A stretch of DNA of 64,000 bases from positions 1,792,001 to 1,856,000 of the forward strand of contig OZ219754.1 in NCBI GenBank assembly GCA_964291295.2, in the 5' to 3' direction. The notes under the pieces were generated by a model. That model was not told the DNA's origin. It was given only the letters and a program-made list of their open reading frames with translations, and made no database searches. Shown in pieces: positions 7,602 to 31,989 of this stretch. The stretch comes from an uncultured Candidatus Binatia bacterium (GTDB lineage Bacteria > Desulfobacterota > Binatia > UBA9968 > JAJDTQ01). Numbering within the stretch: position 1 is the stretch's first letter; each line of letters begins with the position of its first letter. Made by a program: the position numbers and the translations under genes.

Positions 7602-10600
7602 ATGACGAAAATACCGCGCGGTTGTTCGGACGGGAAACACGGTTGCCTCATGCACGCGGGGCCTTCGTCCCCCCCCCCCCCCCCCCCCCCCTTCCAACAT
7701 CCACTCTCTCTCTGGGCGCGAGGCTGATCCGGTGCGCGCCTCCGCCAGAAGCCCACGACACCTGAGGGCGGGACTGCTCGCCGGCCTCTTCCTGCTCACG
7801 TTCGCCGCCGCCCTCGCGCCGCAGACGGCACAAGCACAGATCATTGATCTCACCGTAACGCCGGGCAACGGCAAGGTCGACCTGTCCTGGAGCTGGAGTG
7901 GCATTACCGGACAAATCAGGTGGCGGTACCACACATTCGGAGCTGCAACCAACAGCGCAACGGTTACGCCTTCCCCAGGGAAGCGAACTGGTACAGCGAC
8001 GATAACTGGTCTGACCAACGGCCAGATATATGATATCGAGATGCGCGCGAGTCGTCCTAGCGGGATTCATATTGGAACTTCCAACCGTGTCAGGGTGGTG
8101 CCGAACGACCTCGTCATCGTGTCCGCCACCGGGCTGGACAGCACAATACGGCTCAAATGGGACTATCAAGGTAGCCAAACCGGCAGTGGCTGGCAACATC
8201 AGACTTTTGAGGGAACAGGCGGCGGCCCATGGAAACAGCTGGCAGACTATTCTGCCGCCCGCGGGGCTGATATTCGAAATCTTGTTAACGGCAGAACCTA
8301 CAATATCGCTATTCGGTATCTGAGCGGCGGGGGCGGCTCCCACGCTGATTCCGTGCTCCACAACATTGGCTGGGTCAGCGCCACGCCGCGGGGGTCGACC
8401 CCGACGCTGGTTTCCGGCTCGAACGCCAGCGCCGCGGTCGAGTCGACCGGGGCGACGACGCTGGTGTGCTACAACCTTCTGGCGGCCTCGCAAGAAACCC
8501 CGCAAGGCTTGGTCAAGTATCTGGAGGCGCGCGCGGGCATGAGCGCCGTGCCTGCGCACAGCGTACTTGCCGATTCGAGTCTCGGCGTCGAGATCACCCA
8601 GGCCCCCGCCGGCATCACCAAGGGGCGCGGCGTCAACCTCAGTCCCTGCGTCAATCTCGGAGTGGGCGCGCATACCGTCACCTGGAGCTGGAAGGGCCGC
8701 GACGGCACTGCCGTGGCCGCCACGACCTCCACCACGATCACCGTGGCGGAGAGGGTCTCCAGTCCCAAGACGATCACGCTGTCGGCGTCCCCGTCGGCCA
8801 CGATCACCGAGGGCAACTCCGGTTCGACGGATGTCACCATCACCTTCACCCTCAGTGAGTCTGCGCCCGCGGGCTTCTCGGTTAGCTTGGGTTATCCCGC
8901 GGACATTGGCACAGCCACTGCCTCCGGCAAGGGATCTAACCCCTGCGATCCGCCTCTGCTTCCGAAGGGCACGGACGTGTGCCTCCCGGACGGCGTTATT
9001 GTCTCCATCGCCGAAGGCGAGACCCAGGGCACGAAGATCGTCCGCATACTCGGTGACACCCGGGAAGAACCGGACGAGACGATAAACCTCATCGGCTACC
9101 AGGACGACTGGGCCACCGGCAGGCTCACCCTGACCATCAGGGACGACGACGAGGGCGCCACCAAACCGGCCAGGCCGAGGGGCCTGTCGGCGGAAGCGGG
9201 CAATGCGCAGGTGGTGCTGACCTGGACCGATCCGGAGGACGATTCGATCACGGGGTATCAGGTGCAGAAGAAGAAGGGGAGCGCGGCCTGGGGCAGCTGG
9301 ACCGACCTCTCCGGTTCGGACGCGGACACCGTGATCCACACGGTGACGAGTCTGGACAACGACAGCGAATACCGCTTCCGCATCCGGGCGAAGAACGGTT
9401 CCGGCAACAGCGCCGCGTCGGCGGCGGTGAGCGCGACGCCGGCTGCCAATCCCAAGCCGTCCAAGCCGGTGCTGACGGCGGTGGCGGGTAACCGTTCGGT
9501 CACCCTGAGCTGGCCCGCCCAGACGAATATCGGGAATTGGGGTTACGAGTACAAGAGCGGGGCCGGCAGTTGGATCGCCAGGACGGTTTCGGACGGCAGC
9601 GCGACAAGCACGGTGGTGACGGGACTGACGGCCGGGACGGAATACACGTTCCGGCTGTTCGCCCGCCGCAGCAGCGGCGGGTCGTACCTTTCGTCGGTGT
9701 GGTCGGACCAGGTGACGGCGACGCCGTATGCCCTGTCGGCGCCGGTGCTGACAGGGGCCACATCGAATGTGGCCAGCTATAGTCTGGGGGTCCAACTGAC
9801 GTGGACCCATAGTGGTGACCTTCTCCCCAGTGGAGCCAGCTGGTTTCATTGGCAGATGGGTTATCGTCTCAAGGGGAGCACCACTTGGCAGGAAACCGCT
9901 CGCACGATCAGTTCGTCGGTACGTTCGGCGCGGACGGTTTCCTGGGAGGGAGGCGGCTACCCCGAGGGTGCGGTGGTGGAGGTGCGGGTCCGGGGACGGG
10001 GGTTGAATGATCAGACTGGCGTCTGGTCCAATATCCGCACGGTGACCCTCAGTGACGATGATGATGACAGGCCAGCCCTGACGTTCACCAGAGCGCCGGT
10101 GACGGTGGAGCCCGGGGCCGCCGCGACCTACACGGTGGCGTTGACGCAGGCGCATGCGGGCACACTGTCGATCGCGAGCGACGACACGGCCACGGCGACG
10201 GTGGACCCGGCGAGCCTGACCTTTACGGCGGTCAACTACAACACGGGTCAGACGGTGACGGTGACCGGGGTCGGCAACGGCACGGCGACGATCAACCACG
10301 CCTTCCGGCTGACGGGAGCTTCCGCGGATGCGATACCGGACGCGGGGACGGTGGACGTGACGGTGGCCGATACGCCGGGGGTGACGGTCTCGACGGCGGT
10401 GCTGACGGTGGTGGAGGGTGACTCCGGCACCTACACGTTGCGGCTGAACAAGGCGCCGTCGAGCGATGTGACGATAAGGGTGGACGGCGCTTCGGGGGAC
10501 GTGACGGTGGCGGGCGCGCCGCTGACCTTCACCACGTCCAACTGGAACAAGCCGCAGACGGTGACGGTGAACGCGGGGACGGACACGGACAATATCAGGG

Positions 10601-13065
10601 ATCCCGATGTGACGCTGACCCACAGCGCGGCGGGCGGCGGCTACGGTTCGGTGGGCATCGCCTCGGTGGTGGTGAGCGTGACGGAGAAGGATGTGGCGCC
10701 GGCGAAGCCGACGGGCCTGGCTGCGGCGGCGGGCGACGGTTCGGTGACGCTGAGCTGGACGGACGCGGGCAATCCGACCATCACGAAGTGGCAATACCGG
10801 CGGAAGGCCGGCGGCGGGGCTTGGGGCGATTGGAAGGACATTGGGGGCTCCGGAGCGATCACCACCAGCCACAAGTTGACCGGGCTGACCAACGGCACCG
10901 CGTATCAGTTCGAGGTGCGCGCGGTGAACGGTGCCGGCAACGGCGCCGGCCCGGATGCGCCGGTGAGCGCGACGCCGGCGGACGCCACGCTCCCGCCCGC
11001 GCCGCCCGCGGCGGGCGTGAGCGTGAGGGTGACGCCGACGGCGCTGACGGTGGAGGAGGGTGGCTCCGGGAGCTACACGGTGGTGCTGGGTGCGGAGCCC
11101 ACGGACACGGTGACGGTGACGGTGGGCGGGGCATCGGGGGAGGTGACGGCGTCGCCGCAGCGCCTGACCTTCACGGTTTCGAACTGGAGCGAGGCGCAGG
11201 GGGTGACGGTGAGCGCGGCTCGTGACGCGGACATGGCGGACGACAGGGCGACGCTGACGCACGGAGCGAGGGGCGGGGGCTATGAATCGGTGAGCATCGC
11301 CTCGGTGGCGGTGCGGGTGAGGGACACGACGCCGGTGCTGAGTCTGGAGACGGACCCGGCGGCGGTGGCCGAGGGGGAGAACATCCGCCTCACGGTGACC
11401 TCGGACCGTGCGCTGACGGGCAGTCTGACGGTGAGTCTGACGCTGGCGGCGCGCGACGGCGGCGGCTTCGATGGGGAGGACCTTCCGGGTGGGCTGGGGC
11501 CGCGTTCGTTGGATGTGGTGTTCGGCGCCACGGCGAGCCGGAGGGGTTTGGTGATGATACCCACCAGGGTGGATGGGGAGGCGGAAGGGAGGGAGTCGTA
11601 CCGCATCACGCTGAACGCGGCGCCGGGCTATGCGGTGGGGGTGGATGCGGTGGCGGAAGGAGTGCTGGAAGAGGGTTCGTCGTCGTCGGCGAACCGGGTG
11701 AACCGTGCGATCCTGCCGCATGTGGCGGCGCTGGCGCTGTCGCAGACGCTTGAGGCGGTGACGGGGCGGATCGAAGCGGTGTCGGATGGCGGTGCGGGTG
11801 GTACGGTGCGTTTTGGAGCGGCGCCGGGGATGGTGGTGGATGATGAGTGGGTTGGTCCGGGAGGTCGGGGGCAAGGGGGGCCGGGCTTGCGAGAGTTGCT
11901 GGACGGGGCCTCCTTCGCGCTGCCGCTGGGAGCTTCGGGGGCGGGAGGGGCGGCGGCGCCGGCGTTGTGGGGAGTGGGGGAGTGGCGGTCGCTGTCGGGT
12001 TCGGAGCGGGATCTTTCCTGGGACGGCGGGCTGTGGTCGGGGTATCTGGGGGCGGACGTGCGGGTTCGCCCGGACCTGTTGGCGGGGGCGGCGGTGTCGT
12101 ATGCGAAGGGCAAGGTGGATGCGGTGTCCCGGGGTGGTGATGGGACGAAAAGCAGGCACGAGAGCCGGGTGGTGTCGGTGAATCCGTATCTGGCGTGGCT
12201 GCGTGCGGACGGCACGACGCTGTGGGCGAGTGCGGGCTATGGGAGGGGCGAGGTGCGGATCACCGAGGCGGGAGCGGCGGCGCGCACGGCGGACCTGTCC
12301 CAGTGGAGTGGGGCGGCGGGCGGGCGCGGGGTGCTGTTGGAGGATCCGGAGCTCATCGCCGGGGGCACCACGCGAGTGGCGGTGAAGGGGGAGGGCTCCC
12401 TGGTCCAACTGGACACGGAGGCCGGCGACGGTCTGACCGAGTTGACGGTGAAGGCGAGCCGACTGCGGCTGATGCTGGAGGGGTCCTGGGAGCACCGGGT
12501 CGGGGGCGATGCGACGCTGACGCCGGCACTGGAAGTGGGCGTGCGTCATGACGACGGCGACGTTGGGCAGGGCGGCGGCGTGGAGGTGGGGGCCGGCGTG
12601 ACCTGGCGCGACCCGGGTGCCCGTCTGACCGCGGAGTTGCGGGCCCGGATGCTGGCGGTGCACGAGCGGGACCGGGAGGAATGGGGCGTGAGCGCCTTGG
12701 TGCGCCTTGACCCCGGGGCCGACGGGCGGGGGAGCTACCTGAGCTTCGGCCCGACCCACGGTCGCACGGCAAGCGGTCTGGGGCGGTTGTTCGACTACGG
12801 CTCGGCCATGGACAGCGGGGCGGGGGCGGGAGAGAGCCGCCTGGAGGCGGAGATGGGGCACGGCATCGGCATCGCCGGCCCGGCGCCGCTGGCGCTGCTG
12901 ACGCCTTATGCCGGGCTCAGCCTGGCGGAGTCGGGCGAGCGCACGCTGCGCCTGGGCGCACGCTACAGCCTGGGCCCGGGGGTCGCCCTGGGAATCGAGG
13001 GCACAAGCCGGCCCTGGACCAACGGCGAGCAGGGCCTCATGCTGCGCGGTGCGCTGCGCTGGTGA
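7602..13065 (+). CDS. large autotransporter-type adhesin 1 (fibronectin type III and Calx-beta/Ig-like repeats, C-terminal autotransporter beta-barrel); currently frameshifted at a poly-C tract, long ORF 7732-13065
   Basis: Signal peptide ..LLTFAAALAPQTAQA|Q; repeated FN3 units (PAKPTGLAAAAGDGSVTLSW..YQFEVRAVN); beta-barrel ending LMLRGALRW; RBS-backed ATG 7602 upstream of C23. Confidence 0.85.
7669..7691 (+). repeat. poly-C homopolymer (C23) in the 5' coding leader of autotransporter 1
   Basis: Counted directly: C run from 7669 to 7691. Confidence 0.95.
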
Positions 13066-13584: not shown

Positions 13585-13591
13585 GGTCCGG

Positions 13592-15149: not shown

Positions 15150-15635
15150 ATGGCGACATTGTCCCATGTCGATGAACAGGGGCGGGTGAGGATGGTGGAT
15201 GTCACCGGCAAGGAGGTGACCCGGCGGGTTGCGGTGGCCGGAGGCGTGGTGACCATGCGCCCGGAGACCTTGGCCGCCATTGCCGGGGGGCGGATTCCCA
15301 AGGGCGATGTGCTGGCGGTGGCGCGCATCGCCGGGATCATGGCCGCCAAGAAGACGTCCGAGCTCATACCGCTGTGTCACCCGCTGCCCATCAGCAGCGT
15401 GGAGGTCACGCTCACCCCGCGGCAGGAGCCGCCGTCGGTGGAGATCGAGGCCGCCGTGCGCATCCAGGGCCGCACCGGCGTGGAGATGGAGGCGCTTACC
15501 GCGGTGGCGGTGGCGGGTCTCACCCTCTACGACATGTGCAAGGCCGTGGACCGGGAGATTGCCGTCGGCGAGATTCGCCTTCTGCGCAAGAGCGGAGGCA
15601 AAAGCGGTCCATTCGAGAGAAGGCCGGCCGACTGA
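15150..15635 (+). CDS. moaC: cyclic pyranopterin monophosphate synthase
   Basis: [41 protein letters not shown]. Confidence 0.97.
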
Positions 15636-15707
15636 CCGGCGGGTCTCCCGGCGGCGCGGGCTAAAGTCTCTCCAGGCCGTGCCGACTGTATACCCGGGAA
15701 CCTGTCC

Positions 15708-16412: not shown

Positions 16413-16518
16413 GGGCCCCGGGCACGTGTTGCGGAACGCCGCGGGCGGCTTGACCCCCGGGCGCGGGACGGAGTACGTTGACCGGCAACGCAATCGTGCC
16501 GTCAGGGGGTCCAGCCGC

Positions 16519-17994: not shown

Positions 17995-18069
17995 ACAGCA
18001 GCCGGCCCTTGGCGGGGGCGGGTTGCAGGCCCGCCCGCGTCCGCCGCAAGGCGGCACGGACAAGTCAAC

Positions 18070-20466
18070 ATGACGGAACCACAGGTCGAGAAAGTACCGG
18101 GATATTGCGCGCTGTGCACCGCCCACTGCGCCACCGTGGCCACGGTGGAGAACGGGCGCGTGACGCGGCTCGATCCGGACCATGAGCATCCCAACGGCGG
18201 AGCCATCTGCGTCAAGGGCAAGGCGGCGCCGGAACTGGTCTACAACCGCGAGCGGCTGAACCGCCCGTTGCGCCGCACCAACCCCAAGGGCGCCGCCGAC
18301 CCGGGCTGGCGGCGCGTGGGGTGGGACGAGGCGCTGGACGACATCGCCGCCCGCCTGCTCGACATCCGCGAGCGCCACGGCGCCGAGGCCATCGCCATGG
18401 CCCGGGGCACCGCCAGCGGCACTTCGACGGACGACGTCAACGGGTGGTCGTCGCGTCTTCTCAACCTCATGGGCAGCCCCAACTCGCTGTCCACCACCCA
18501 CGTCTGCAACTGGCACCGGGATACGGCGTTCAGCTACACGTTCGGCGTGCCGCAGCCCTCCCCGGACGTGCTCCACAGCGGCGCCTTCCTGCTGTGGGGC
18601 CACAACCCGAGTTCCACGCAGTTGATGCTGGCCCAGGATGTCGCCACCGCGCGCAAGCGCGGCATGAAGGTGGTCGTGGTGGATCCGCGCAGGGTGGGCT
18701 TCGGCAGTCAGGCGGACGTCTTGCTCCAGGTGCGCCCGGGCGCCGACGGCGCGCTGGCCCTGGCGCTCGTCCATGTCCTGATCGAGGAGGGACGGTACGA
18801 CGAGGACTTCGTCCGCGACTGGACCAACGGCCCGTTTCTCCTGCGCACGGACACCGGAGCGCCGCTGACCGAGTCGGACATGGCGGCGGGAGGGAGTCCG
18901 GACCGCTGTCTGGTCCGGGACGAGTCCTCCGGCCGGGTCGTTGTCCATGATCCGGAGACCCGCGCCTGCGTGGAAGAGGGCGTCCGCCCGGCTCTTCAGG
19001 GGACGGTCCGCGTGTCCATGAAGGACGGCGCCGCGGTGATGTGCGAACCGGTCTTTGCCGCACTGGCGCGGCTGGCCGCGGCGCATGCCCCGGAACGGTC
19101 GGAGGACGTCACGCGTGTGCCGGCGGACAAGGTTCGCGAGGCCGCCCGCGTGCTCGGCGGCCACCGCCCCGTGAGCATGTTCATGTGGAACGGCGTCGGC
19201 CAGCACACCAATGCGACGCAGACGAGCCGGGCCATCTCCATCCTGTACGCGTTGCTGGGCGACATAGACGCGCCCGGCGGCAATCTGATGCTGCCCATGG
19301 CGCCGTTGCGCGGTGTGGACGGCAAGGAGTTCCTTTCCCCCGAGGCGGTTTCGAAGCGTATCGGACTTGCCGGAAAACCGTTGGGCCCGCCGGCCACCGC
19401 GGGTGCGTGCGCGGCCCACGACGTCTACACCGCCATCCTGGAGGAGCGCCCGTATCCGGTCCGCGCCCTCATCAATCTGGGCTCCAACACGGTGATCTCC
19501 AACGGCGACTCCGAACGCGGCCGCAAGGCCCTTTGCAGCCTGGAGTTGGGTGTGGCCACCGAACTCTTCATGACCCCCACCGCCGAGCTCTGCGACTACG
19601 TTCTGCCCGCCACCAGCTTCCTCGAAATGGACCACCTCGCCGGCGGCTTCCGGCACCGGGTGGATGCCCGCTCCCACGTCCAGTACCGGCGGCGGGCGGT
19701 GGAGCCGCTGGCCGAGCGGCGTTCCGACACGTGGGTGGTGTTCGAGCTGGCCCGGCGCATGGGCTTCGGCGGCGACTTCTGGGGCGGCGACGTGGAGGCG
19801 GCCCGTTCCTGGCAGTTGGAACCTGCCGGCCTCACGCTGGACGAGCTCAGGGCGCGGCCGGGCGGTGTGACCCTGGCGGCGCCGCGGCGTTACCGGAAGT
19901 ACGCGGAGACCGACGGCGAGGGCCGCCGGAAGGGCTTCTACAATCCATCGGGCCGGGTGGAACTCTACTCGCACCGGTTGGCGCGGCACGGGTTCCCGCC
20001 GTTGCCGGAGTACCGGGAGCCGGCCCTGAGCCCGGTGAGCACGCCGGAGCTGGCCGCGGAGTACCCTCTGGTCCTGACCAACGCCAAGTTCACGACGTTC
20101 ATCCACAGCCAGCAGCGGGCCCTGCCCGGTCTTCGCAAGGCCGCGCCCGAGCCCATTGCCGAACTCCATCCGGATACCGCGGTCGAGCACGGCATCGGAC
20201 ACCGGCAGTGGATGGTCGTCGAGAGCCCCAAGGGCGCGGTGCGGGTGCGGGCCAATCTCACCGCCCGGATCATTCCCGGTGTGGTCTGTGTGCAGCACGG
20301 CTGGTGGCAGGCGTGCCGGGACCTTGCACTCCCGGGGCATGATCCCTTCTCCCGGCTCGGGGCCAACGCCAACCGCCTGGTGGACGCCGAGTACCAGGAT
20401 CCGGTCAGCGGCTCCCTGCCGCACCGGTCGTTCCTGTGCCGCGTGCGGCCGGTGGACGGCCCGTGA
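18070..20466 (+). CDS. molybdopterin-dependent oxidoreductase (DMSO reductase superfamily), cytoplasmic
   Basis: N-terminal CALCTAHC..ICVKG 4Fe-4S motif, RLNRPLRR, WDEALD, VDPRR, DYVLPA, C-terminal molydopterin-binding domain; no Tat signal. Confidence 0.9.
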   Translation: MTEPQVEKVPGYCALCTAHCATVATVENGRVTRLDPDHEHPNGGAICVKGKAAPELVYNRERLNRPLRRTNPKGAADPGWRRVGWDEALDDIAARLLDIRERHGAEAIAMARGTASGTSTDDVNGWSSRLLNLMGSPNSLSTTHVCNWHRDTAFSYTFGVPQPSPDVLHSGAFLLWGHNPSSTQLMLAQDVATARKRGMKVVVVDPRRVGFGSQADVLLQVRPGADGALALALVHVLIEEGRYDEDFVRDWTNGPFLLRTDTGAPLTESDMAAGGSPDRCLVRDESSGRVVVHDPETRACVEEGVRPALQGTVRVSMKDGAAVMCEPVFAALARLAAAHAPERSEDVTRVPADKVREAARVLGGHRPVSMFMWNGVGQHTNATQTSRAISILYALLGDIDAPGGNLMLPMAPLRGVDGKEFLSPEAVSKRIGLAGKPLGPPATAGACAAHDVYTAILEERPYPVRALINLGSNTVISNGDSERGRKALCSLELGVATELFMTPTAELCDYVLPATSFLEMDHLAGGFRHRVDARSHVQYRRRAVEPLAERRSDTWVVFELARRMGFGGDFWGGDVEAARSWQLEPAGLTLDELRARPGGVTLAAPRRYRKYAETDGEGRRKGFYNPSGRVELYSHRLARHGFPPLPEYREPALSPVSTPELAAEYPLVLTNAKFTTFIHSQQRALPGLRKAAPEPIAELHPDTAVEHGIGHRQWMVVESPKGAVRVRANLTARIIPGVVCVQHGWWQACRDLALPGHDPFSRLGANANRLVDAEYQDPVSGSLPHRSFLCRVRPVDGP

Positions 20467-20475
20467 GGATACACG

Positions 20476-21549
20476 ATGGTTCTCGTACTCAAGAATGAAC
20501 AGCTGGAGGATCTGGTTCCCATGGCGGAGGAGATCGACGCCATCGAGCAGGCCTATCGGGAGATGGGCGAGGGCGGCGCGGTGAATGCGCCCCGCGCTCG
20601 CCTCCGGGTCCAGGCGCCGGGGAAGAAGCCGGGCTTCCAGTACTACTTCAACAACATCATGGGCCTCGTTCCCGGCATGAAGTCCATGGGACTCAGGATC
20701 GACTCGACCTTCTCCGACGAAGAGGAGGTGGCGGGCACGAAGAGACGGATCTACCCCGGCAACTACGTCGGGCTCGTGTTCCTGTTCGACATGGAGGACT
20801 GCTCGCTGCTGTCCATCATGGACGACCATTTCATCTCCATCTTCCGCGTCGGCGCCACCAGCGGGGTGGCGGCGAAACATCTGGCGCGGACGGACGCCCG
20901 GGTGATGGGGCTGGTGGGGTCCGGGGAGCAGGCCCGGACGCAGCTGCTGGCGGCCTGCGCCGTGCGGCCCCTGGACCGGGTCAAGGTGTTCAGTCCCACC
21001 CGCGCCAACCGGGAGCGGTTCGCCGAGGAAATGACCGGGACGGCGGGCGTGGAGATCGTGCCGGTGCACTCCGCGGAAGAGGCCGTGCGCGGCAGCGACA
21101 TCGTCACCGCCGCCACCAACACGGTGGACCCGGTCATTCACGGCGAATGGCTCGAGAAAGGAGCGTTCGTCAACAGCATCGTGGGCGGCGACAGCTATCT
21201 GTCGCGCCATGAACTGGACGACGCCGTGATCGAGCGCGCCGGGCTGATCGTGGTGGGCTTCCGCCAGCAGATCTTTCTGGACAAACAGGCGGAGATCTAC
21301 CCGCGCATCCAGCGCGGCCTCGTCCGGGAGGAAGACCTGCACGAGTTGAGCGAGTTGCTGGCGGGGCAATGCCGCGGCCGCGAGAGCGACGACGAGATCG
21401 TCGTCTTCAAGAACAACACCGGCATGGGCATCCAGTTCGCCGCCACCGCCCGGCTCCTTTACGAGGCCGCGCGCCGGAAGGGCATCGGCACCGAGCTTCC
21501 CTCGGAACTGTTCATCACCGACCGCAAGGGCAAGACCTACTCGCCGTAG
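20476..21549 (+). CDS. ornithine cyclodeaminase / mu-crystallin family protein
   Basis: FRVGATSGVAAKHLA, GSGEQARTQ, DIVTAAT, RESDDEIVVFK..GMGIQ. Confidence 0.88.
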   Translation: MVLVLKNEQLEDLVPMAEEIDAIEQAYREMGEGGAVNAPRARLRVQAPGKKPGFQYYFNNIMGLVPGMKSMGLRIDSTFSDEEEVAGTKRRIYPGNYVGLVFLFDMEDCSLLSIMDDHFISIFRVGATSGVAAKHLARTDARVMGLVGSGEQARTQLLAACAVRPLDRVKVFSPTRANRERFAEEMTGTAGVEIVPVHSAEEAVRGSDIVTAATNTVDPVIHGEWLEKGAFVNSIVGGDSYLSRHELDDAVIERAGLIVVGFRQQIFLDKQAEIYPRIQRGLVREEDLHELSELLAGQCRGRESDDEIVVFKNNTGMGIQFAATARLLYEAARRKGIGTELPSELFITDRKGKTYSP

Positions 21550-21558
21550 CGCGCCGCT

Positions 21559-22842
21559 TCACGAACCGGCGCCCGGGGTCGGGGTGTCGCGCTTGACCGG
21601 CCGTCTGATGAGCAGGGTCAGTCCCGCGCACAGGATCTGCACGGCGACGAAGAGGGTCAGCGGCAGATCGTAGCTGCCGGTGTAGTCGTGGAGGTAGCCG
21701 AAGAACGGCGCCCCGGCGGCGGCGCAGAGCAGCAGGATGGGGACGCTGAGACCGCGGACCGTGCCGAGGGACAGCCGCCCGAAACAGTTGGCCCAGACGA
21801 CTTCCTGAAGCACCTGCGCGCCCCCGAGGCCGGCGCCGTAGAGGAAGAAGGCCGCGTACAGCCACGGCAAGGCATGGGTTCTCAGGGCGATGACGAGTCC
21901 CGCGGCCTGTATCACGAACATCAGCGCGGTGGTTCTGCGGACGCTCACCCGTTCGCTGACAAAGCCCCACAGGAGGCCGGAGCCCAGTTGGGTGGCGGCG
22001 GTGACCGTGACCACGGACCCGGCCCGGAAGTCGGCATGGCCCATGTCGGACACGAAGGGGAACAGGTGCAGGTTGAATCCGGCGACGCCGATGTCCACCA
22101 CGCTGAAGATGAAGGTGATGAGCCAGAAGGTGGAGGTGCGCACGGCTTCCCGCCGGGTCCAGACCACGTCCGTGCGCGGCGTCCGGTCCCCGCGGCCGCT
22201 CTCCGGACGCATGCCGGGTTCCGGGTCGCCGTCCGGATGGAGTCCGATGTCTTCGGGGCTGCGCCGCATCCACACCGCCGCCGGTATCAGGATCAGGAAG
22301 ATCACCAGGGCTCCGAACAGGATCCACAGGTGACGCCAGCCGATGGTGGTCAGGAGGTAGGCGGCCACCAGGGCGATGGTGGTCTTGGAGAGGCCCTGTC
22401 CCAGATGGGCGATGGCCACGGCCCGGCCGCGCTGCCTGACGAACCAGCGGGACACCGTGACGTTGACCACGAAGTAGCACACCAGGGCGTGCCCGATGGA
22501 AACCAGGGCCACCCGGATGACGGTGAACTGCAGGAAGCTCCGGGCGTAGCCCAGCGACACGAAGCCCGCCACCGAGATGACCGCGCCAGTGACCATCAGC
22601 CACCGGGCGCCATACCGATCCAGCAGGGAGCCGATCCACGGCGCCGCGCCGGCGTAGGCCACCAGTTCGAGGGAACGCATGATCGAGAAGGTGCCGCGGG
22701 TGACGCCCAGATCGGCGGTAATGGACTTCATCAGCACGCCGAGGGTGCTGGACAGGTAGAAGGCGCAGGCGATGTTGACCAGAAAGCCGGTGGCGACGAT
22801 GTACCAGCCGTAGAACAGACCGGGTCTTGCGGATTCCTGCAT
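21559..22842 (-). CDS. MFS transporter (monocarboxylate/OFA-like)
   Basis: FYGWYIV start, ~12 hydrophobic segments, LDRYGARW, WFVRQRGRA. Confidence 0.9.
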   Translation of the reverse strand: MQESARPGLFYGWYIVATGFLVNIACAFYLSSTLGVLMKSITADLGVTRGTFSIMRSLELVAYAGAAPWIGSLLDRYGARWLMVTGAVISVAGFVSLGYARSFLQFTVIRVALVSIGHALVCYFVVNVTVSRWFVRQRGRAVAIAHLGQGLSKTTIALVAAYLLTTIGWRHLWILFGALVIFLILIPAAVWMRRSPEDIGLHPDGDPEPGMRPESGRGDRTPRTDVVWTRREAVRTSTFWLITFIFSVVDIGVAGFNLHLFPFVSDMGHADFRAGSVVTVTAATQLGSGLLWGFVSERVSVRRTTALMFVIQAAGLVIALRTHALPWLYAAFFLYGAGLGGAQVLQEVVWANCFGRLSLGTVRGLSVPILLLCAAAGAPFFGYLHDYTGSYDLPLTLFVAVQILCAGLTLLIRRPVKRDTPTPGAGS

Positions 22843-22863
22843 TCCTTCGATTCGCCCGGGCGG

Positions 22864-24159
22864 CTAACCGGCCCGTTCCAGGCTCGCCGGGTGCCGGGGC
22901 CGCCGTATCGTGAGCGTCAACGCGGATGAAGCCAGCAGCATGGCGATGAACAGGTAGAACGAGATCCTGTACGATCCGGTGTAGTCATTCACGAAGCCGA
23001 AGAACGGTGGACCGCAGACGCCGCACAACAGCACGATCTGCAGGGCGGCGCCGCGAACCGTACCCAGCGACACCCGGCCGAAGTAGTTCGCCCACATGAC
23101 CTCCTCCAGCACCTGGGCGCCGCCAAGCCCCAGGCCGTAGAAGAAAAACCCGAGGTAGATGGTCGAGAGGTCCTGTGCGGTCGCCGCCACGTACAGCCCG
23201 GCGGCCTCCATCAGAAACAGGAACGCGATGATCCTGCGGACGCGGAAGCGCTCGCCGACGAAGCCCCACAGCAGGCCCGAGGCGGTTTGCGTGCCGGCGA
23301 TCACGGTCATGGTCAGGGCCGCCGGGAACCCGCCGTATCCCAGGTCCGAGACGTAGGAGACGACGTGGAGGTTGAGGCCGGTGATGCCCACGTCCACCAT
23401 GCCGAACACCAGGATGATGAGCCAGAAGGTGGGGGTGCGCCGCACATCCCGCCGCGTCCAGTGAACGTCCGGCTCCGGCGCCCGCGCCCGGGCATGGACG
23501 GTGCCCTTCATGGGTTCGCGTTGGGCGGCGCCGTCGGGATGAAGCCCCATGTCCTCCGGGCTCCGGCGCATGAAGAGGGCCACCGGGATGACGGCGAGCA
23601 CCACCACCAGCACGCCGAACAGGGTCCACACCTGGCGCCAGGCGATGAATGTCAGCAGCCAGCCCACCACCGCGGAGATGGCCACCTTGGCGACGCCATG
23701 TCCCAGGTGGGAAAGGGCCAGCGCCCTCCCCCGCATCCGGACGAACCACCGGGCCACCGTGACGTTCACCACGAAGTAGCAGACCAGGGCGTGGCCGGCC
23801 GCCATCACGGTCATGCGCACGGAGGCGAACTGCCAGAAGTGGGACACCTGACCCAGCACCAGGAACCCGACGGCCGAGAGGGCTGCTCCGGTGACCATCA
23901 TGCGGCGCGGACCGTATTGGTCCAACTTCGATCCCACCCAGGGTGCCATCAGGGCGTAAAGGAGGTGCTCGCCCGACCGCAGCAGCGAGAAAAGCCCCCG
24001 GGACACGCCAAGATCGGCGGTGACGGGCTTCAGAAAGACGCTGAGTGTACTGGACAGGAAGAAGGCGCACGAGATGTTGGCCAGGAAGGCGGCGCCCACG
24101 ATGTACCAACCGTAGAACACGCGCGACCGTCCGGAGCGGTGGAGGGGATCAGAAATCAC
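22864..24159 (-). CDS. MFS transporter, tandem paralogue of 21559-22842
   Basis: Shared segments GHALVCYFVVNVTV, MRRSPED.GLHPDG, LGGAQVL.EV.WAN.FGR.SLGTVRG. Confidence 0.9.
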   Translation of the reverse strand: MISDPLHRSGRSRVFYGWYIVGAAFLANISCAFFLSSTLSVFLKPVTADLGVSRGLFSLLRSGEHLLYALMAPWVGSKLDQYGPRRMMVTGAALSAVGFLVLGQVSHFWQFASVRMTVMAAGHALVCYFVVNVTVARWFVRMRGRALALSHLGHGVAKVAISAVVGWLLTFIAWRQVWTLFGVLVVVLAVIPVALFMRRSPEDMGLHPDGAAQREPMKGTVHARARAPEPDVHWTRRDVRRTPTFWLIILVFGMVDVGITGLNLHVVSYVSDLGYGGFPAALTMTVIAGTQTASGLLWGFVGERFRVRRIIAFLFLMEAAGLYVAATAQDLSTIYLGFFFYGLGLGGAQVLEEVMWANYFGRVSLGTVRGAALQIVLLCGVCGPPFFGFVNDYTGSYRISFYLFIAMLLASSALTLTIRRPRHPASLERAG

Positions 24160-24561
24160 GGCGGTGCGGGAATCCGGGGCAATTCTGGCTCAGGTTGCAC
24201 TCTTGCGCGAACGGGCTGTGGCAAGCAGGAACCCGGGACCCGGTTCATTCGGGGAAACGTAGGCAATCGCGTCGTCGGAGTCAAACTTTGTCCGGCGTTT
24301 GTTCGGCGGCCGCCGCGGTGATGGCGGTTCGGTCGGCATGACGCCGAGCGGGTTGCCAGAACCATCCCGCGCCGGGGAATGGCGGAAGAACCAGGGTATG
24401 GACGTTTCTCGCTTCGTCAGCCGGCACGCCCGCGCTGATCGAGACCCCCGTCACCGCCCGCACATGACCCCGCCGCCACCCGCCGCCCTTGCGCTCGGTC
24501 TGCGCCGTCAACCATCGAAGTCTCCTGGACAGACGCCCGCTGTTTCTGCCGCCAATCCCCC

Positions 24562-24603
24562 GCGTGGGACAGCCCCGGGATAGCCGCCCGGGCTGTCCCA
24601 CGC
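24562..24603. repeat. GC-rich inverted repeat (REP-like hairpin)
   Basis: gcgtgggacagccc...gggctgtcccacgc arms. Confidence 0.6.
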
Positions 24604-24699
24604 TGCGTGTCGGGTGCGTGGGGGAGAGATTGGGGTGTCAGGCAGTGGCGTTCTTGCGCTATGGCAGATAGCGCGGTGGCAGATAGACATGGGGGGATG

Positions 24700-26215
24700 T
24701 GGGAACGCATCCGCAAGGGGTCGGGCGCGGTCCACGGTGAGGCACCGGAAGGGTATGCGCTGTGGGAGGTGGGGGAGGGTCGGGTGAAGCCGGAGGAGCG
24801 TTCCCGGAGGAGCGTCCGGACCGGGACGTGCTGATGGACAGGCATCCTTGTCCGGGCTTTCGCGGTCTGGCAGGCCGCGGCCTTCGTCATGCGGCGACCT
24901 TCAGAGGTCGATGGCCGGGCTTGGCGGCGTGGCAGAACGGCGCCTTCAAGTGCCGACCGCGGGACCGTTGGACCGGCGGACGGTCGAAGCAGCCGTTCGA
25001 GCGTCCGGGTCGGATCGCCGACCACACGCGCCTTCTGCTGCTCTCCGAGCCCGGAGTGTTTCCCAACCTTGCCTCCCGTTTCGTGGCGCGCATGACCCGC
25101 TGGCGGGCGGTGCACGGCCATCCGGTGCTTGTGGCCGAGACATTCCACGATTCGGGGTTTTCCGGGGTTGTTTGCGGGCACGCTTTACAAGGCGGCGGGC
25201 CGGGCAGGACCCGTGGGTTAGCGCGCGCCAACGGGCGTTGCACCGACCCCCACGGTTGGCGGAAGGAGACAGGGGTCAAGCCGCTGCGGCCCGACGCCCG
25301 GGCGCGGCTGTCGAACCCGCGTCCGCTGCCGCCCCACGTGGCGCCTCCGGTCGATCCCGGCCTGGCTTCCCGCCACCCGGTGGCGATGCGTTCCCAGTAT
25401 GCCGAACGGGCGGTCGTGCCGGACTTCCGCCGGAACCAGGGCCGGAAGCCCGGGGTGGCCTGCGTGCTCGCCGTGCATGTGCGGTGCCGACGACCTCTTC
25501 CGGGTCAAGGCCAACGCGCCGGACACCTTCCATCTTCTCGCCCGCATTGACTGGGAGAAAGACGCCACCGGCCACTTCGAGGAGGAACTCGACAAGCTCC
25601 CCGGTGGTCCGGAGCCGCGCTCCATCCGCGTCCCGCCCCCGCGCCGGGTCCACTACCCCGGCGTCCGCCAGATCACCCGCCACCGTGAGCCCCTGCGCGA
25701 GGACGGGGACAGGGCCGGGGAAGAACACATGGAAACCGCCCATGTCCTCACCTCCCTTGATGCCGCAGCGGCATCTCCGAGAGACCGGCTCCGGCTCAAT
25801 CGCGGACACGGGGTCGTGGAGAACCGCAACCAGCGCCGGAGGGACTGCGTCTTCGGCGAGGACGCATGCCTGACCGGCATCGGACACGGACCGGCCAACC
25901 GCGCCCGCCTTGACCGCATCGCACTCGCGGTGATCTTCACCAACCGGCGCGACACCGAGAGCTTCACCGAAACCCGCCGACGGCTGCAACTCGACCGGGG
26001 CCAAGCCTTCGCCGCCCTGACCCGGCCACCGACGTCCCGGAACCCCAGCCCCAACCACCCCCGCAGGCCACCCCACCGCCAGGCCCATCCCCGGCTCACC
26101 CGGCCCGGCGCTTATCCCCGGACAGTACCCCTGCACCGACAACCGCATGAAAGGCACCCTACCCCCCTCTGCCCCACTCTCATCCCAACCCCCAGCTTCG
26201 GAAAGTCCTGGTGTC
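24700..26215 (+). mobile_element. degenerate ISAs1-family element with an N-terminal DUF4338 (DruA-like) domain; many frameshifts and deletions
   Basis: GRGLRHAAT..W..GAFKCRPRDRW..PNLASRF..HGHPVLVAETF (DUF4338-like), then VPDFRRNQGRK, FRVKANAP, NRGHGVVENRN..RDCVFGEDAC (ISAs1 transposase). Confidence 0.75.
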
Positions 26216-26338
26216 GGGCGCGGCGCACGTTGAAATCGGCCTGCGGATGGGTTACAGGTTGCACCGATGGGTTTGCTGCGGTCGTGCGGGTTCGGCGCCC
26301 CGATATTCGACAGGAATTCAGGACGGGAGGATGAGATC

Positions 26339-29300
26339 ATGACGGGGACGCCGGGCGATGTCGGGATGCATGACCTGCGGCTGTCCGGGCGGGGCATGAG
26401 CGCCTCACGCGCGCGCGAACCCGAACTCGTTGCCCCCCCCCCCCCCCCCGAAAACCGGCTGTGGGGCTTAGTCCGGTGGGCGCCCTCGGGAGAACCGCCA
26501 GCCGCCTGAAGGCGGCATTCGCCCTCGTCTTCTTCGCGCTGGTGACGCTCGCCGTGCTCGCGCCGCAGGACGCGCGGGCGCAGCAAAAGCCGGCGCTCAC
26601 GGCAACCCCGGGTGTCGGCAGTGTCACGCTCAACTGGACCCGTACCGGCAACACTGGATTTGGATATTGGGTTTACCGACAGGGGGTCACCGGAGGAGGT
26701 TACGGCGACTGGATCGATATACCGGGCGGCGCCACCATCAGAACCCACACGGTCACAGGGTTGACCCCCGGCACCTCCTATACCTTCCAGGTGGCAAGGG
26801 CGGAAGGTACCGGTCTCAACTTTTCCGTCTTCGCTAGTGGGGGAGGGTACTCGAACGGGGCCACGGCGACGCCAACGGCGGCCACTTCCACCAAGACGAT
26901 CACCCTGTCGGCGACATCGACCTCGATCACCGAGGGCAACTCCGGCTTTACGGACGTGACGGTCACCGTGACGCTCGGCGAGGCGGCGCCGGCGGCGGAT
27001 CCGGATTTGGGGATTTTTTCGCTCTCCCTTATTTCTGCCAGTCCCCCCGGCACGGCCACAGGCTCCAGCAAGGGAGCAAACCCCTGCACGGCGCCGCTGA
27101 ATCCGGCGGACACCGACTGGTGCCATCCGGACGGGGCCAACATCTCCATCGCCGAAGGTGAGACCATGGGCACGAAGAAAGTGCGTATTCTCGCCGACAC
27201 CCGGGACGAGCCGAACGAGACCATCAAGCTCGTTTCTTCGGCTGCGCATCCTGGCTGGACCGACGGCAGCCTCACCCTGACCATTACCGACGACGATCCC
27301 CCCACCACGGCCGTTCCTGCCGCGACAGCGGGACTGGGTTCGGATGCAGGGGATCGGAAGGTGACGCTCATATGGGAGGCTGTCAGGGATTCCAATCCGG
27401 CCATTACCAAGTGGCAGTATCAGCAGAAGACCGGGTTGGCGGCCTACGGCGCATGGACCGATATTTCCAACTCGGCGGAAGGTGAACCCAATAACGGCAG
27501 ATATGTGGTGACGGGTTTGAGCAACGGGACGGAATACAAGTTCAAGGTGCGTGCGGTGAACAGTTCCGGCAACGGTGTGGTATCCAATGAGACAACGGCA
27601 ACCCCCACTGGCAGCAAGACCATCACCCTCACAACCGATCAGCCCAATAACCGTATCACGGAGGGTGATACGGAAAGGAAGAACATAGTCCTCACCGTTA
27701 CCCTCAGCGAGGATGCACCGGACGAGTTTCTTGTCAGCATCAGCTATGGTGGGGGTATCGGCACCCTGGTGGGCAATGATAACGGAGGTTCCGACAACTG
27801 CAGCAATCCGACCCCCGCGACAGCAGATATCTGCTTCCCCGGCGGCCCTTCCGCGAGTAGCCTCCCCATAGAGTCTGGGCAAAGAACAGCCACAAGGACG
27901 GTTGGCATTCTTCCGGACACCTTGGAGGAGGGGGATGAGTACTTCTCCATGCGGGCCAGCACCAGCACAGGGGGCTGGTCGGGCGACTCCATCCTCATCA
28001 CCATTGTTGACAATGATGGCACCACCGCCAAACCCGCCAAGCCCACGGGGTTGTCGGCGGAGGCGGGCAACGGTCAGGTGGAGCTGACGTGGACGGACCC
28101 GGAGGACGATTCGATCACGGGGTATCAGGTGCAGCAGAGGAAGGGGAGCGCCGCCTGGGGCAGCTGGACCGACATTTCCGGTTCGGACGCGGACACCACG
28201 AACCACACGGTGACGGGTCTGGACAACGACAGCGCGTACCGTTTTCGCATCCGGGCGCAGAACGGCGGCGGCAACAGCGCCGCGTCGGCGGTGGTGCGGG
28301 CGACGCCGGCGGAGCCCGCTACGGCCCCCGCCAAGCCGACGGGCTTGGGCGCGACGAAGGGCGACACGTGGGTCTACCTGACGTGGACCGATCCGGGCGA
28401 CGCCAGCATCACCCGTTGGGAGTACCGGCAGAAGGCCGGTACCGGAAACTACGGTTCGTGGATGCGGATGACGGGTTCCGGCGCGGCGACGGTGAAGCAC
28501 CAGATCCCGGGCCTGAAGAACGGCACGGTCTACGCGTTCAGGATTCGCGCGGTGAACGGCAACGGCAACGGCGCGGCGTCGGAGGAGGTGACGGCGACGC
28601 CGAATCCGCCGGTGGCGCCGGTGTTGACGGCAGCCACTTCAACGACCAATCGGAATCTCACGCTGACCTGGACCCATGCCGGCTCGACCGCGGTCGATTA
28701 CATCGACGGCGGGGGTGCCAGCGCCGTCTGGTGGCAAACGGGGCATCGGCTGAAGGGGTCCACCACCTGGACGGCGTACGGCGGGAACGTATCCGCCGCG
28801 AGGGGCAACTCCCGGCGCACCTCGTCGGCGCTCCTCGGCTCCGCTGCTGCCTACCCGAACGGAGCATCGGTGGAGGTGGCGATTCGGGCATCGGGCGATT
28901 CCTTATTGCTGGGCAGGTCGGATGTCAAGGGCCCCTGGTCGAACGAGCGCACGGTCACGTTCATGAACACCGATACGAACGCGCTGACGATCACCGGAGC
29001 GCCGGTGACGGTGGCGCCCGGTTCCACGGCGGTCTACAGGGTGGCGCTGACGAAGGCGTATGCGGGGACGCTGTCGGTCAAGAGCGACGACACGGACACG
29101 GCGACGGTGAGTCCGCCGAATCTGACGTTTACCGCGGACAACTACAGCACGGCGCAGGATGTGACGGTGACCGGGGTCAAGAACGGCACGGCGACCATCA
29201 ACCACGCCTTTCGGCTGACGGGGGCCACGGTGGATGCGATACCGGATGCGGGCACGGTGGACGTGACGGTGGCGGATGCGCCGGGGGTGACGGTGTCGAC

Positions 29301-31989
29301 GGCGGCGCTGACGGTGGCGGAGGGCGGCAGCGGCGCCTACACGATGCGGCTGAACACGGCGCCGTCGAGCGATGTGACGATAATGGTGGACGGCGCTTCG
29401 GGCGACGTGACGGTGGCGAATGCGACGCTGACCTTCACCACGGTCAACTGGAACATGCCGCAGACGGTGACGGTGAACGCGGGGACGGACACGGACACGA
29501 CGCCGGACGCCGCCGTGACGCTGACCCACAGCGCCTCGGGGGGCGGCTACGCTTCGGTGAGCATCGCCTCGGTGGTGGTGAGCGTGACGGAGAGCGGCGT
29601 GGTGCCGGCGAAGCCGACGGGCCTGGCGGCGGCGGCGGGGGACGGTTCGGTGACGCTGAGCTGGACGGACGCGGGCAATCCGACCATCACGAAGTGGCAA
29701 TACCGGCGGAAGGCCGGTGGCGGGGCCTGGGGCGATTGGACGGACATCGGGGGCTCCGGAGCGAGCACCACAAGCTACGAGGTGAGCGGGCTGACCAACG
29801 GCACCGCGTATCAGTTCGAGGTGCGCGCGGTGAACGGTGCCGGCAACGGCGCTGGCCCGGATGCGCCGGTGAGCGCGACGCCGACGGGCGCCACGCCGCC
29901 ATCCACGCCTCCCGGGACAACGCCGACGCCGCCTGCGGCGGTCGGGAGCGGGAGCGTGCGGGTGACGCCGGCGGCGCTGACGGTGGAGGAGGGCGGCACC
30001 GGGAGTTACACGGTGGTGCTGGGTGCGGAGCCCGCGGGGACGGTGACGGTGACGGTGGGCGGGGCATCGGGGGAGGTGACGGCGGTGCCGCGGCGCCTGA
30101 GCTTCACGGTGTCGAACTGGAGCGAGCCGCAGCGGGTGACGGTGAGCGCGGCTCGTGACGCGGACACGGCGGACGACAGGGCGACGCTGACGCACGGAGC
30201 GAGGGGCGGGGGCTATGATTCGGTGAGCATCGCCTCGGTGGTGGTGCGGGTGAGGGACACGACGCCGGTGCTGAGTCTGGAGACGGACCCGGCGGCGGTG
30301 AGCGAGGGGGAGGACATCCGCCTTGTGGTGACCTCGGACCGTGCGCTGACGGGCAATCTGACGGTGAGCCTGACGCTGGCGGCGCGCGACGGCAGCGGCT
30401 TCGATGCGGAGGACCTTCCGGGGGGACTGGGGCCGCGTTCGTTGGATGCGGTGTTCGGCGCCACGGCGAGCCGGAGGGGAGTGGTGATGATCCCCACCCG
30501 CACGGATGGAGAGGTGGAAGGCCGGGAGTCGTACGGCATCAGGCTGAACGCGGCGGAGGGCTATGCGGTGGGGGTGGATGCGGAGGCGGAGGGAGTTCTG
30601 GAAGAGGGTTCGTCGGAGGGGGCGGATCGGGTGAACCGTGCGATCCTGCCGCAGGTGGCGGCGATGGCGCTGTCGCAGACGCTGGAGGCGGTGACGAGGC
30701 GGATCGAAGCGGTGTCGGATGGCGGTGTGGGCGGTGCGGTGCGTTTTGGAGCGGCGCCGGGGAAGGCGGTGGAGGAGGAGTGGGTTGGCTTGGGAGACCC
30801 GGGGCAACAGGGACCGGGCTTGCGGGAGATGCTGGACGGGGCCTCCTTCGCGCTGCCGCTGGGTGCTTCGGGGGCGGGAGGGGCGGCGGTGCCGGCGTTG
30901 TGGGGAGTGGGCGAGTGGCGGTCGCTGTCGGGTTCGGAGCGGGATCTTTCCTGGGAGGGCGGGCTGTGGTCGGGGTATCTGGGGGCGGACGTTCGGGTTC
31001 GCCCGGACCTGCTGGCGGGGGCGGCGGTGTCGTATGCGAAGGGCAAGGTGGATGCGGTGTCGAAGAGGGGCGACCGGACGAAAAGCAGGCACGAGAGCCG
31101 GGTGGTGTCGGTGAATCCGTATCTGGCGTGGCTGCGTGCGGACGGCACGACGCTGTGGGCCAGCGCGGGTTACGGGAGGGGCGAGGTGCGGATCGCCGAG
31201 GCGGGAGCGGCGGCGCGCACGGCGGACCTGTCGCAATGGAGTGGGGCCGCGGGCGGGCGCGGGGTTCTGATGGAGGATACGGAGATCATTGCCGGGGGCA
31301 CCACGCGAGTGGCGGTGAAGGGGGAGGGCTCCCTGGTCCAACTGGGCACGGAGGCCGGCGACGGTCTGACGGAGTTGACGGTGAAGGCGAGCCGACTGCG
31401 GCTGATGCTGGAGGGGTCGTGGGAGCACCGGGTCGGGGGCGATGCGACGCTGACGCCGGCACTGGAAGTGGGCGTGCGTCATGACGACGGCGACGTTGGG
31501 CAGGGCGGCGGGGTGGAGGTGGGGGCCGGCGTGATCTGGCGCGACCCGGGTGCCCGTCTGACCGCGGAGTTGCGGGCCCGGATGCTGGCGGTGCACGAGC
31601 GGGACCGGAAGGAATGGGGCGTGAGCGCCCTGGTGATCCTGGACCCCGGGGCGGACGGTCGGGGGAGCTATCTGAGCTTCGGCCCGGCCCACGGTCGCAC
31701 GGAAAGCGGTGTGGGGGGGTTGTTCGACTACGGTCCGGCCACGGACAGCGGGGCGGGGGCGGAGGAGAGCCGTCTGGAGGCGGAGCTGGGGCACGGCATC
31801 GGCATCGCCGGCCCGGCGCTGCTGACGCCTTATGCCGGGCTCAGCCTGGCGGAGTCGGGCGAGCGCACGCTGCGCCTGGGTGCGCGCTACCGCTTGGGGT
31901 CGGGGGTCGCCCTGGGAATCGAGGGCACAAGCCGGCCCTGGACCAACGGCGAGCAGAGCCTCATGCTGCGCGGTGCGCTGCGCTGGTGA
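26339..31989 (+). CDS. large autotransporter-type adhesin 2 (FN3 and Calx-beta/Ig-like repeats, C-terminal beta-barrel); currently frameshifted at a poly-C tract, long ORF 26461-31989
   Basis: Signal peptide ..FFALVTLAVLAPQDARA|Q; FN3 repeats; C-terminus LMLRGALRW; GGAGG-N8-ATG 26339 upstream of C17; paralogue of 7602-13065. Confidence 0.85.
26433..26449 (+). repeat. poly-C homopolymer (C17) in the 5' coding leader of autotransporter 2
   Basis: Counted directly: C run from 26433 to 26449. Confidence 0.95.

What the first reader, a model, noticed from the sequence alone, without database searches (positions are those of the whole stretch)
26315..26520. C17 translational switch in the leader of autotransporter 2
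Seen: GGAGG-N8-ATG 26339 reads MTGTPGDVG..ELVAPPPPPE and stops at 26509 (56 aa). C18 or C15 would join it in frame (..RKPAV..) to the 1842-aa ORF. The leader coding sequence has otherwise diverged from that of paralogue 1, yet a long C run is kept at the equivalent position. Inference: the tract itself is under selection, and the two adhesins switch independently (four states).
Basis: partly seen in the sequence, partly recalled or inferred. Interest (0 to 1): 0.75.

Follow-up and report, generated by a model that had tools for sequence, protein, structure and literature searches.

The report
Poly-C switch heading autotransporter adhesin gene
A run of 17 C's sits in a short translated leader in front of a large surface-adhesin gene and most likely turns it on and off by slippage, as in known pathogens, but here in an uncultured bacterium and on a gene head shared with very distant bacteria.

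Summary
C17 lies at 26433-26449. A GGGAGG-N8-ATG start (26339) reads through it and stops at 26509. C18 or C15 would fuse it to the 1842-aa FN3 autotransporter ORF.

The tract is not a chance run. The genome has 35 C/G runs of 12-27 nt and none of 11. All 9 paralogous gene heads in this genome carry one, as do all 18 homologous heads fetched from other MAGs. Seventeen of those are C9-C29 and one is G16. Those MAGs are distant: transketolase is 47-52% identical.

Best reading (0.58) is a slipped-strand translational ON/OFF switch, here OFF. It is of the NalP/MspA kind.

- For: the start is conserved, and the leader frame is open in 19 of 21 distinct leaders.
- For: phases among 23 loci are 7/7/9, and near-identical duplicates differ by one C.
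- For: the poly-G homologue has no start codon behind its tract.
- Against: the leader peptide shows no purifying selection, and a conserved GTG with its own Shine-Dalgarno-like motif follows the tract.
- No read-level alleles could be obtained.

This scan has noted the same cassette four times before on other DNA.

The parts
26325..26330 (+). Shine-Dalgarno-like GGGAGG, 8 nt before the leader ATG
   Evidence: The context ACGGGAGG-N8-ATGAC recurs in the paralogues and in homologues from other MAGs.
26339..26509 (+). Leader ORF as it stands with C17 (56 aa, stop TGA 26507-26509). It overlaps the start of the main ORF in another frame.
   Evidence: phase 2, off.
26433..26449 (+). C17 homopolymer, read as poly-Pro. 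Presumed slipped-strand mispairing site.
26469..26471 (+). TAG in the third frame, 4 nt before GTG 26476. A leader in that phase would end here. The other paralogues have TGA at the same place.
   Evidence: all 7 phase-1 loci end ..ARG* at this stop.
26476..26580 (+). Conserved GTG (preceded by GGGG, 8-nt spacing) and the Sec-type signal peptide VGALGRTASRLK-AAFALVFFALVTLAVLA-PQDARA, then QQ. The cleavage site is read by eye.
   Evidence: No signal-peptide predictor was available.
26461..31989 (+). Main ORF (1842 aa from the first GTG): FN3-repeat passenger plus autotransporter beta-domain
30904..31506 (+). Autotransporter beta-domain (PF03797)
   Evidence: E 1.1e-11, 45.5 bits, cut-off 26. 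One search places the same match in genome coordinates.
7602..7691 (+). Paralogue 1 head: SD-like GGGTGAGG, ATG at 7602, leader, and C23 at 7669-7691 (phase 1, off; C22 or C25 would join)
7732..13065 (+). Paralogue 1 main ORF (1777 aa) from the homologous GTG

Best explanation
The C17 is a hypermutable slipped-strand site inside the translated 5' leader of a type Va autotransporter gene with an FN3-repeat passenger.

Ribosomes start at the strong SD-ATG (26339) and read about 31 leader codons and the tract as poly-proline. Only when the tract length puts them in the main frame (C15, C18, C21) do they continue into the signal peptide and the 1842-aa protein. With C17 they stop at 26509, so this copy reads as OFF.

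Replication slippage adds or removes C's, so each of the nine such genes in the genome flips on and off on its own.

Shown: the anatomy, the conservation of start and tract, length differences between copies and genomes, and the frame arithmetic. Inferred: that the ATG is the start that matters, that the tract length varies within a population, and that the protein is an adhesin.
For: (1) SD-N8-ATGAC is conserved at 67-108 nt before the tract in 7 of 9 paralogues. The same holds in 16 of 18 homologous loci from other MAGs.

(2) The ATG frame is open up to the tract in 19 of 21 distinct leaders. The +2 frame is open in 10 of 21.

(3) Of 23 loci with such a leader, 7 are in phase 0 (fused), 7 in phase 1 and 9 in phase 2. 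This even spread is what free-running tract length would give.

(4) Near-identical duplicates differ in tract length. In this genome C15 (fused) and C14 (off) have flanks that differ by one base. In one MAG C11 (fused) and C10 (off) have identical leaders. Another pair shows C21 and C24.

(5) 27 of 27 gene heads carry a tract, C9 to C29.

(6) The homologue in a 51%-GC locus of an Arenicellales-labelled MAG has G16 instead, in frame from an upstream ATG. It has no ATG, GTG or TTG between the tract and the signal peptide.

(7) Database proteins include 24 forms of 64 family members read through poly-Pro of 3-11 residues. At least 8 of them carry the leader motif G[DN][IV]GM[HQ].

(8) Two extended forms lack the valine of the GTG (K and A).

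(9) No promoter-like hexamers lie around the tract.

(10) Elsewhere in this genome, five lipoprotein paralogues carry C16-C22 directly behind the signal-peptide cysteine. A tract there can only act through the frame.

(11) Known precedent: nalP and mspA of N. meningitidis have poly-C tracts of 6-15 nt in their coding sequences, and ON lengths were confirmed by immunoblot (PMC3723659, abstract and passages read).
Against: The leader peptide shows no purifying selection in the ATG frame. pN/pS is 1.30 over the first 48 nt (10 distinct sequences) and 0.88 over 93 nt (5 distinct). This is no lower than in the other frames.

Homologous leader bases are read in different frames in some copies.

A GTG with a GGGG/GAGG motif at 8-nt spacing follows the tract and gives a textbook signal peptide. 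It is kept in 8 of 8 intact paralogues and is V in 24 of 26 extended proteins. The gene might therefore be translated without the leader.

Three heads keep a long tract although the leader ATG is lost (genome position 5012) or the leader has a stop (586116 and L095).

An in-frame product would carry an N-terminal region of about 60-75 residues before the hydrophobic core, which is unusually long.

No read-level alleles, no RNA and no protein data exist for this locus. Homopolymer lengths in assemblies are error-prone.
Confidence: 0.58

Rival explanations
1. Dual-start or coupled reading. The adhesin is translated from the conserved GTG (26476), and the ATG leader is a separate upstream ORF. 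The tract decides where that ORF ends.
- Phase 0: fused product.
- Phase 1: the leader stops 4 nt before the GTG, where ribosomes could re-initiate.
- Phase 2 (this copy): the leader runs about 30 nt past the GTG and may block it.
The switch would then have three levels rather than ON/OFF.
For: The GTG and the preceding GGGG/GAGG at 8-nt spacing are conserved. This is the same spacing as at the leader ATG.

All 7 phase-1 leaders end at the TGA/TAG 4 nt before the GTG. Eight of 9 phase-2 leaders end at the TGA in ..CGCCTGA.. behind it.

The leader peptide is unconstrained. One head has lost the leader ATG yet keeps C19 and the GTG. Gene callers start 38 of 64 family proteins at or near this GTG.
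Against: The poly-G homologue has no start codon behind the tract. Two family proteins have K or A in place of the V.

The conserved bases around the GTG also encode a conserved peptide (GRGAEPVGALGRTARRLKAG). Their conservation therefore need not mean a ribosome-binding site.

Folding gives no consistent structure that would couple tract and GTG.
Confidence: 0.27
2. The tract acts on transcription or on the untranslated RNA, as promoter spacing, a 5'-UTR element or a Rho loading site. It would not act through the reading frame.
For: Other tracts of this genome do sit between TTGACA and TAnnnT hexamers. One is the G17 at 55782-55798 in this window. A poly-C RNA is a good Rho ligand (recalled knowledge, not tested).
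Against: No promoter-like site lies in 25800-26700 (0 found). The bases flanking this tract are not hexamer-like. A conserved SD-ATG lies upstream, and its frame is kept open.
Confidence: 0.07
3. There is no working switch. Either runs this long slip during transcription as well, so that every allele yields all three frames, or the out-of-frame copies are decaying pseudogenes or assembly errors.
For: The tracts (14-29 nt) are longer than an RNA-DNA hybrid of about 9 bp (recalled). The assembly may mis-size homopolymers. Two thirds of copies are out of frame.
Against: The 5.5-kb ORFs behind out-of-frame tracts are intact in this genome and in the other MAGs. The tract is retained in 27 of 27 heads across distant genomes. 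The run-length distribution is bimodal: 114 runs of 7, 15 of 8, 7 of 9, 2 of 10, 0 of 11 and 35 of 12 or more.
Confidence: 0.08

Closest known systems
NalP and MspA, phase-variable type Va autotransporters of Neisseria meningitidis (PMC3723659; abstract and passages read)
   Same: A poly-C tract lies inside the coding sequence of an autotransporter gene. Expression is ON only at lengths of one residue class modulo 3. Tract length differs between strains.
   Different: The tracts there are 6-15 nt; here they are 14-23 nt in this genome and up to 29 nt in homologues. Here the tract lies in a roughly 30-codon leader before the signal peptide and is followed by a conserved GTG. The passenger is FN3 repeats, not a protease. 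The host is an uncultured bacterium, with nine copies per genome. Expression has not been tested.
Poly-G/C contingency loci ('phasome') of Campylobacter jejuni and Neisseria (PMC4965091 and PMC5084427; search listing and abstracts only)
   Same: Dozens of G/C homopolymers per genome lie in or before surface-structure genes and methyltransferase-like genes. They give combinatorial ON/OFF states.
   Different: C. jejuni NCTC11168 has 29 loci with tracts of seven or more (abstract). This genome has 35 tracts of 12-27 nt in 3.7 Mb. It does have MutS and MutL domains.
Promoter-spacer homopolymer switches (Bordetella fim genes; recalled, no call)
   Same: A long poly-C run and slipped-strand variation.
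   Different: In that case the tract sets promoter geometry. At this locus no hexamers flank the tract and it lies behind a start codon. Other loci of this genome do look like that type.
Extended signal peptide region (ESPR) of autotransporters (recalled)
   Same: An N-terminal extension before a classical signal peptide of an autotransporter.
   Different: The leader gives no Pfam match (0 families for the 56-aa leader). Its sequence is not conserved at the protein level.

Membership tests
Translational (frameshift) phase variation by a homopolymer, NalP/MspA type | Hypermutable mononucleotide run of about 7 nt or more | tested here: met
   C17 at 26433-26449.
Translational (frameshift) phase variation by a homopolymer, NalP/MspA type | The run lies between the functional start codon and the body of the ORF | tested here: inconclusive
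   A conserved SD-ATG lies upstream and its frame is kept open in 19 of 21 leaders. However, a conserved GTG with an SD-like motif lies behind the tract.
Translational (frameshift) phase variation by a homopolymer, NalP/MspA type | Run length differs between copies, strains or cells while the flanks stay the same | tested here: met
   Between copies and genomes the range is C9-C29. Pairs with near-identical flanks show C15/C14 and C11/C10. Variation within a population could not be tested, because only contigs were available and they break at the tracts.
Translational (frameshift) phase variation by a homopolymer, NalP/MspA type | Protein made only at in-frame lengths | not testable with these tools
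   No RNA or protein data. No RNA run holds the locus.
Type Va (classical) autotransporter | C-terminal beta-barrel translocator domain | tested here: met
   PF03797, E 1.1e-11, 45.5 bits against a cut-off of 26, window 30904-31506.
Type Va (classical) autotransporter | N-terminal Sec signal peptide | tested here: inconclusive
   A charged stretch, a 17-residue hydrophobic core and ARA-Q were read by eye. No predictor was available.
Promoter-spacer phase variation | Tract between -35 and -10 hexamers | tested here: not met
   0 promoter-like sites in 25800-26700.
ESPR-type extended signal peptide | Match to the conserved ESPR motif | tested here: not met
   Pfam scan of the 56-aa leader: 0 families.

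The most novel reading that the evidence does not exclude
The leader, tract, GTG and signal peptide form a portable switch cassette. It has spread by horizontal transfer among very distant uncultured bacteria that share a habitat, and each of them also runs a large homopolymer 'phasome'.

Because it combines two start codons with conserved stops in both other frames, the cassette may give three expression levels rather than two: a fused product, re-initiation at the GTG, or a blocked GTG.

This would be a graded, horizontally shared contingency system in non-pathogenic community bacteria.
Probability: 0.25. Interest if true: 0.75.

Novelty: new variant of a known kind. Interest (0 to 1): 0.55.

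Why it matters
Homopolymer contingency loci are textbook features of a few host-adapted pathogens. Here the same logic appears in an uncultured bacterium, with nine switchable adhesin genes and 35 long tracts in 3.7 Mb.

The switch-bearing gene head is shared with MAGs whose transketolase is only about 50% identical. If confirmed, this would show two things. Stochastic surface variation would be a general strategy of community or symbiotic bacteria, and the switch itself would travel with the gene.

It also matters for annotation. Gene callers start 38 of 64 family members at or near the internal GTG and so hide the switch.

In five literature searches (listings and abstracts only) I found no report of this cassette.

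Tried and rejected
Read-level alleles. The three runs that hold the locus are kept only as contigs. When laid on 7400-26900, no listed contig bridges either tract; one ends inside the C23, and two end at 26413. This shows nothing either way. No RNA holder is listed.

JGI metagenome scan with the N-terminal 475 aa: no relative.

Same genus and order: no orthologue of the gene head by protein or DNA in 41, 28 and 123 genomes.

Orthologue of this very gene in another assembly: none. The best matches outside this genome are 59-71% identical over part of the length. Strain-level alleles of this tract therefore could not be compared.

Purifying selection on the leader peptide: not found.

RNA structure linking tract and GTG. 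Z-scores ran from -0.8 to +2.2 over 17 loci, with no consistent pairing. In two of them the script anchored on an earlier CCGGTG, so those two rows are not informative.

Promoter and terminator scan around the tract: 0 and 0.

Names for homologues: the cluster look-up returned none.

Mismatch-repair loss as a cause of instability: rejected, because MutS_V and MutL domains are present.

Taxon of this genome: not determined here.

Full report
**What is there.** The window holds 17 C's at 26433-26449. GGGAGG at 26325-26330 is followed after 8 nt by ATG 26339. That frame reads 31 codons, the tract as five prolines and 19 further codons, then stops at TGA 26507-26509. The 1842-aa ORF 26461-31989 is in another frame. 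The offset is 2, so C18 or C15 would fuse the two. The protein has five FN3 stretches and a C-terminal autotransporter beta-domain (PF03797, E 1.1e-11, 45.5 bits, cut-off 26).

**More than chance.** C9 words occur 33 times in the window against 5.2 +/- 3.3 in shuffles. In the 3.70-Mb, 66%-GC genome, C/G runs number 114 of length 7, 15 of 8, 7 of 9, 2 of 10 and none of 11. There are 35 of 12 to 27. This distribution is bimodal, which composition alone does not give.

**A family of gene heads.** Nine loci of the genome share the plan SD-ATG, leader, C14-C23, 17-69 nt, GTG, signal peptide. Seven of them lead into ORFs of 1790-2186 aa with PF03797 domains. One heads a giant ORF that crosses the contig origin, and one is a truncated remnant. 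The alignment shows only a few conserved parts:
- the SD and ATGAC;
- a GC-rich stretch before the tract;
- the block GGGGCTGAnCCGGTG and the signal-peptide codons behind it.

**Relatives elsewhere.** No orthologue was found in 123 genomes of the same order or in JGI metagenomes. A scan of species-representative genomes gave 29 loci, of which L085-L102 (18 loci) are family members. They lie in MAGs labelled Vicinamibacteria, Alphaproteobacteria, Pseudohongiella, Gammaproteobacteria and Arenicellales.

All 18 carry a homopolymer before the signal peptide. Seventeen are poly-C of 9 to 29 nt, including L098, whose head lies 770 nt upstream of the match. One is G16. Most have the same ACGGGAGG-N8-ATGACG leader as the target.

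Five of these MAGs were probed with the window's transketolase and gave 47-52% identity. The N-terminal adhesin segment is 53-95% identical, and the 160 nt behind the tract are about 70-80% identical to the target in 9 of 12 loci compared. Taken together, this says the gene head moved horizontally. All five MAGs also hold many C12+ runs, as do several genomes of the window's own genus.

**Does the tract act through the frame?**

*Evidence for.*
- The upstream start is conserved, and its frame is open to the tract in 19 of 21 distinct leaders. The +2 frame is open in 10 of 21. The +1 frame always has the TGA within ATGA and is not informative.
- Among 23 loci with such a leader, 7 are fused to the main ORF, 7 are in phase 1 and 9 in phase 2.
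- Copies with near-identical flanks differ by one C and thus in state: C15 versus C14 in this genome, and C11 versus C10 in one MAG.
- The Arenicellales homologue is in frame from an ATG through G16. It has no ATG, GTG or TTG between tract and signal peptide, so translation there must cross the tract.
- Of 64 family proteins in the protein collection, 24 are read through 3-11 prolines, 38 are called from or near the GTG and 2 lack a poly-Pro.
- Five lipoprotein paralogues of this genome carry C16-C22 right behind the lipobox cysteine. This organism therefore uses tracts inside coding sequence.

*Evidence against.*
- The leader peptide is free to vary. pN/pS is 1.30 and 0.88, no lower than in the other frames. 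Some copies read homologous bases in different frames.
- The GTG behind the tract has a GGGG/GAGG at the same 8-nt spacing as the leader ATG. It is kept in all eight intact paralogues and is V in 24 of 26 extended proteins.
- Three heads keep long tracts although the leader start is lost or the leader is interrupted.

These points leave open a dual-start or coupled arrangement. In phase 1 the leader always ends at a TGA or TAG 4 nt before the GTG (7 of 7). In phase 2 it ends about 30 nt behind it (8 of 9). The target is in phase 2. Folding gave no structure that would link tract and GTG. There are no promoter hexamers at the tract.

**What could not be done.** Only contigs of three runs of one study hold the locus, and they break at the tracts. 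Length heterogeneity within a population is therefore untested. No other assembly holds an orthologue of this very gene. The length of a 17-nt run in an assembly may be off by one, so 'OFF' is provisional.

**Comparison with the known.** The closest cases are nalP and mspA of N. meningitidis: poly-C of 6-15 nt in the coding sequence, with ON lengths confirmed by immunoblot (PMC3723659, abstract and passages). This locus works like them on the best reading. It differs in four ways:
- tract length;
- position in a leader before the signal peptide, with a second start behind it;
- the FN3 passenger;
- copy number and host.

Membership in the class 'translational homopolymer switch' is met for the tract and for its length variation between copies. 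It is inconclusive for the start codon and untestable for expression. MutS and MutL domains are present. Five literature searches found no report of this cassette (listings and abstracts).

**Earlier notes of this scan.** Four notes on other genomes describe the same cassette and reach the same reading. I reached it from my own calls. The following points come from my own calls; whether the earlier notes already hold them I could not see:
- the phase census;
- the open-frame test;
- the negative selection test;
- the poly-G homologue without an alternative start;
- the conserved stops that make a three-level reading possible.

**Verdict.** The locus is a new variant of a known kind of switch, of moderate to good interest.

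Noticed in passing
window 55782-55798 (G17 on +) and ORF 55833-57989 (+): The third long tract of the window lies between TTGACA and TAAAGT (TTGACAgt-G17-a-TAAAGT). This looks like a promoter-spacer switch, upstream of an ORF with a TbpB_B_D beta-barrel domain (E 1.3e-17). Three more copies of this element in the genome have G15-G17.
   Followed up: partly
whole genome G000: There are 35 C/G runs of 12-27 nt in 3.7 Mb and none of 11. They fall into families: autotransporter heads, lipoprotein N-termini, promoter-like spacers, and ORFs with methyltransferase-like motifs read by eye (DPPY, DPACGSG).
   Followed up: partly
G000:C1 351886, 874052, 1555359, 2270508, 2799053: Five paralogous lipoprotein genes carry C16-C22 directly after the signal-peptide cysteine and a short Ser/Asn stretch. 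Four of the five lengths are 1 modulo 3.
   Followed up: no
G000:C1 2349145 (C21), open frame of 10,794 aa to 2380868; also 5012 (C19), which heads an ORF that crosses the contig origin: Two giant autotransporter ORFs also have tracts at their heads. At 2349145 the tract lies about 85 nt upstream of an SD-ATGACC, which is a different arrangement from the target.
   Followed up: partly
L085-L102 against the window: The adhesin head is shared with MAGs whose transketolase is 47-52% identical to the window's. This points to horizontal transfer between distant lineages. Those MAGs are also rich in C12+ runs.
   Followed up: partly
L093:2882-2897: A homologue in a 51%-GC locus has G16 (poly-Gly) instead of poly-C at the same place, beside an unrelated AT-rich leader.
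   Followed up: yes
genus of G000: Tract richness varies widely between species of the genus. C14 words range from 0 to several hundred. Some of the high counts are in fragmented assemblies where runs sit at contig ends and may be artefacts.
   Followed up: no
window 53296-55716 (+): An ORF with a DDE transposase domain and a DruA (Druantia) domain match lies next to the G17 element.
   Followed up: no
window 38723-41641 (-): A 972-aa ORF has a ThyX (Thy1) domain only in its last 200 residues, with two matched stretches. That is unusually long for ThyX. The listed ORF may be over-extended in this GC-rich DNA.
   Followed up: no
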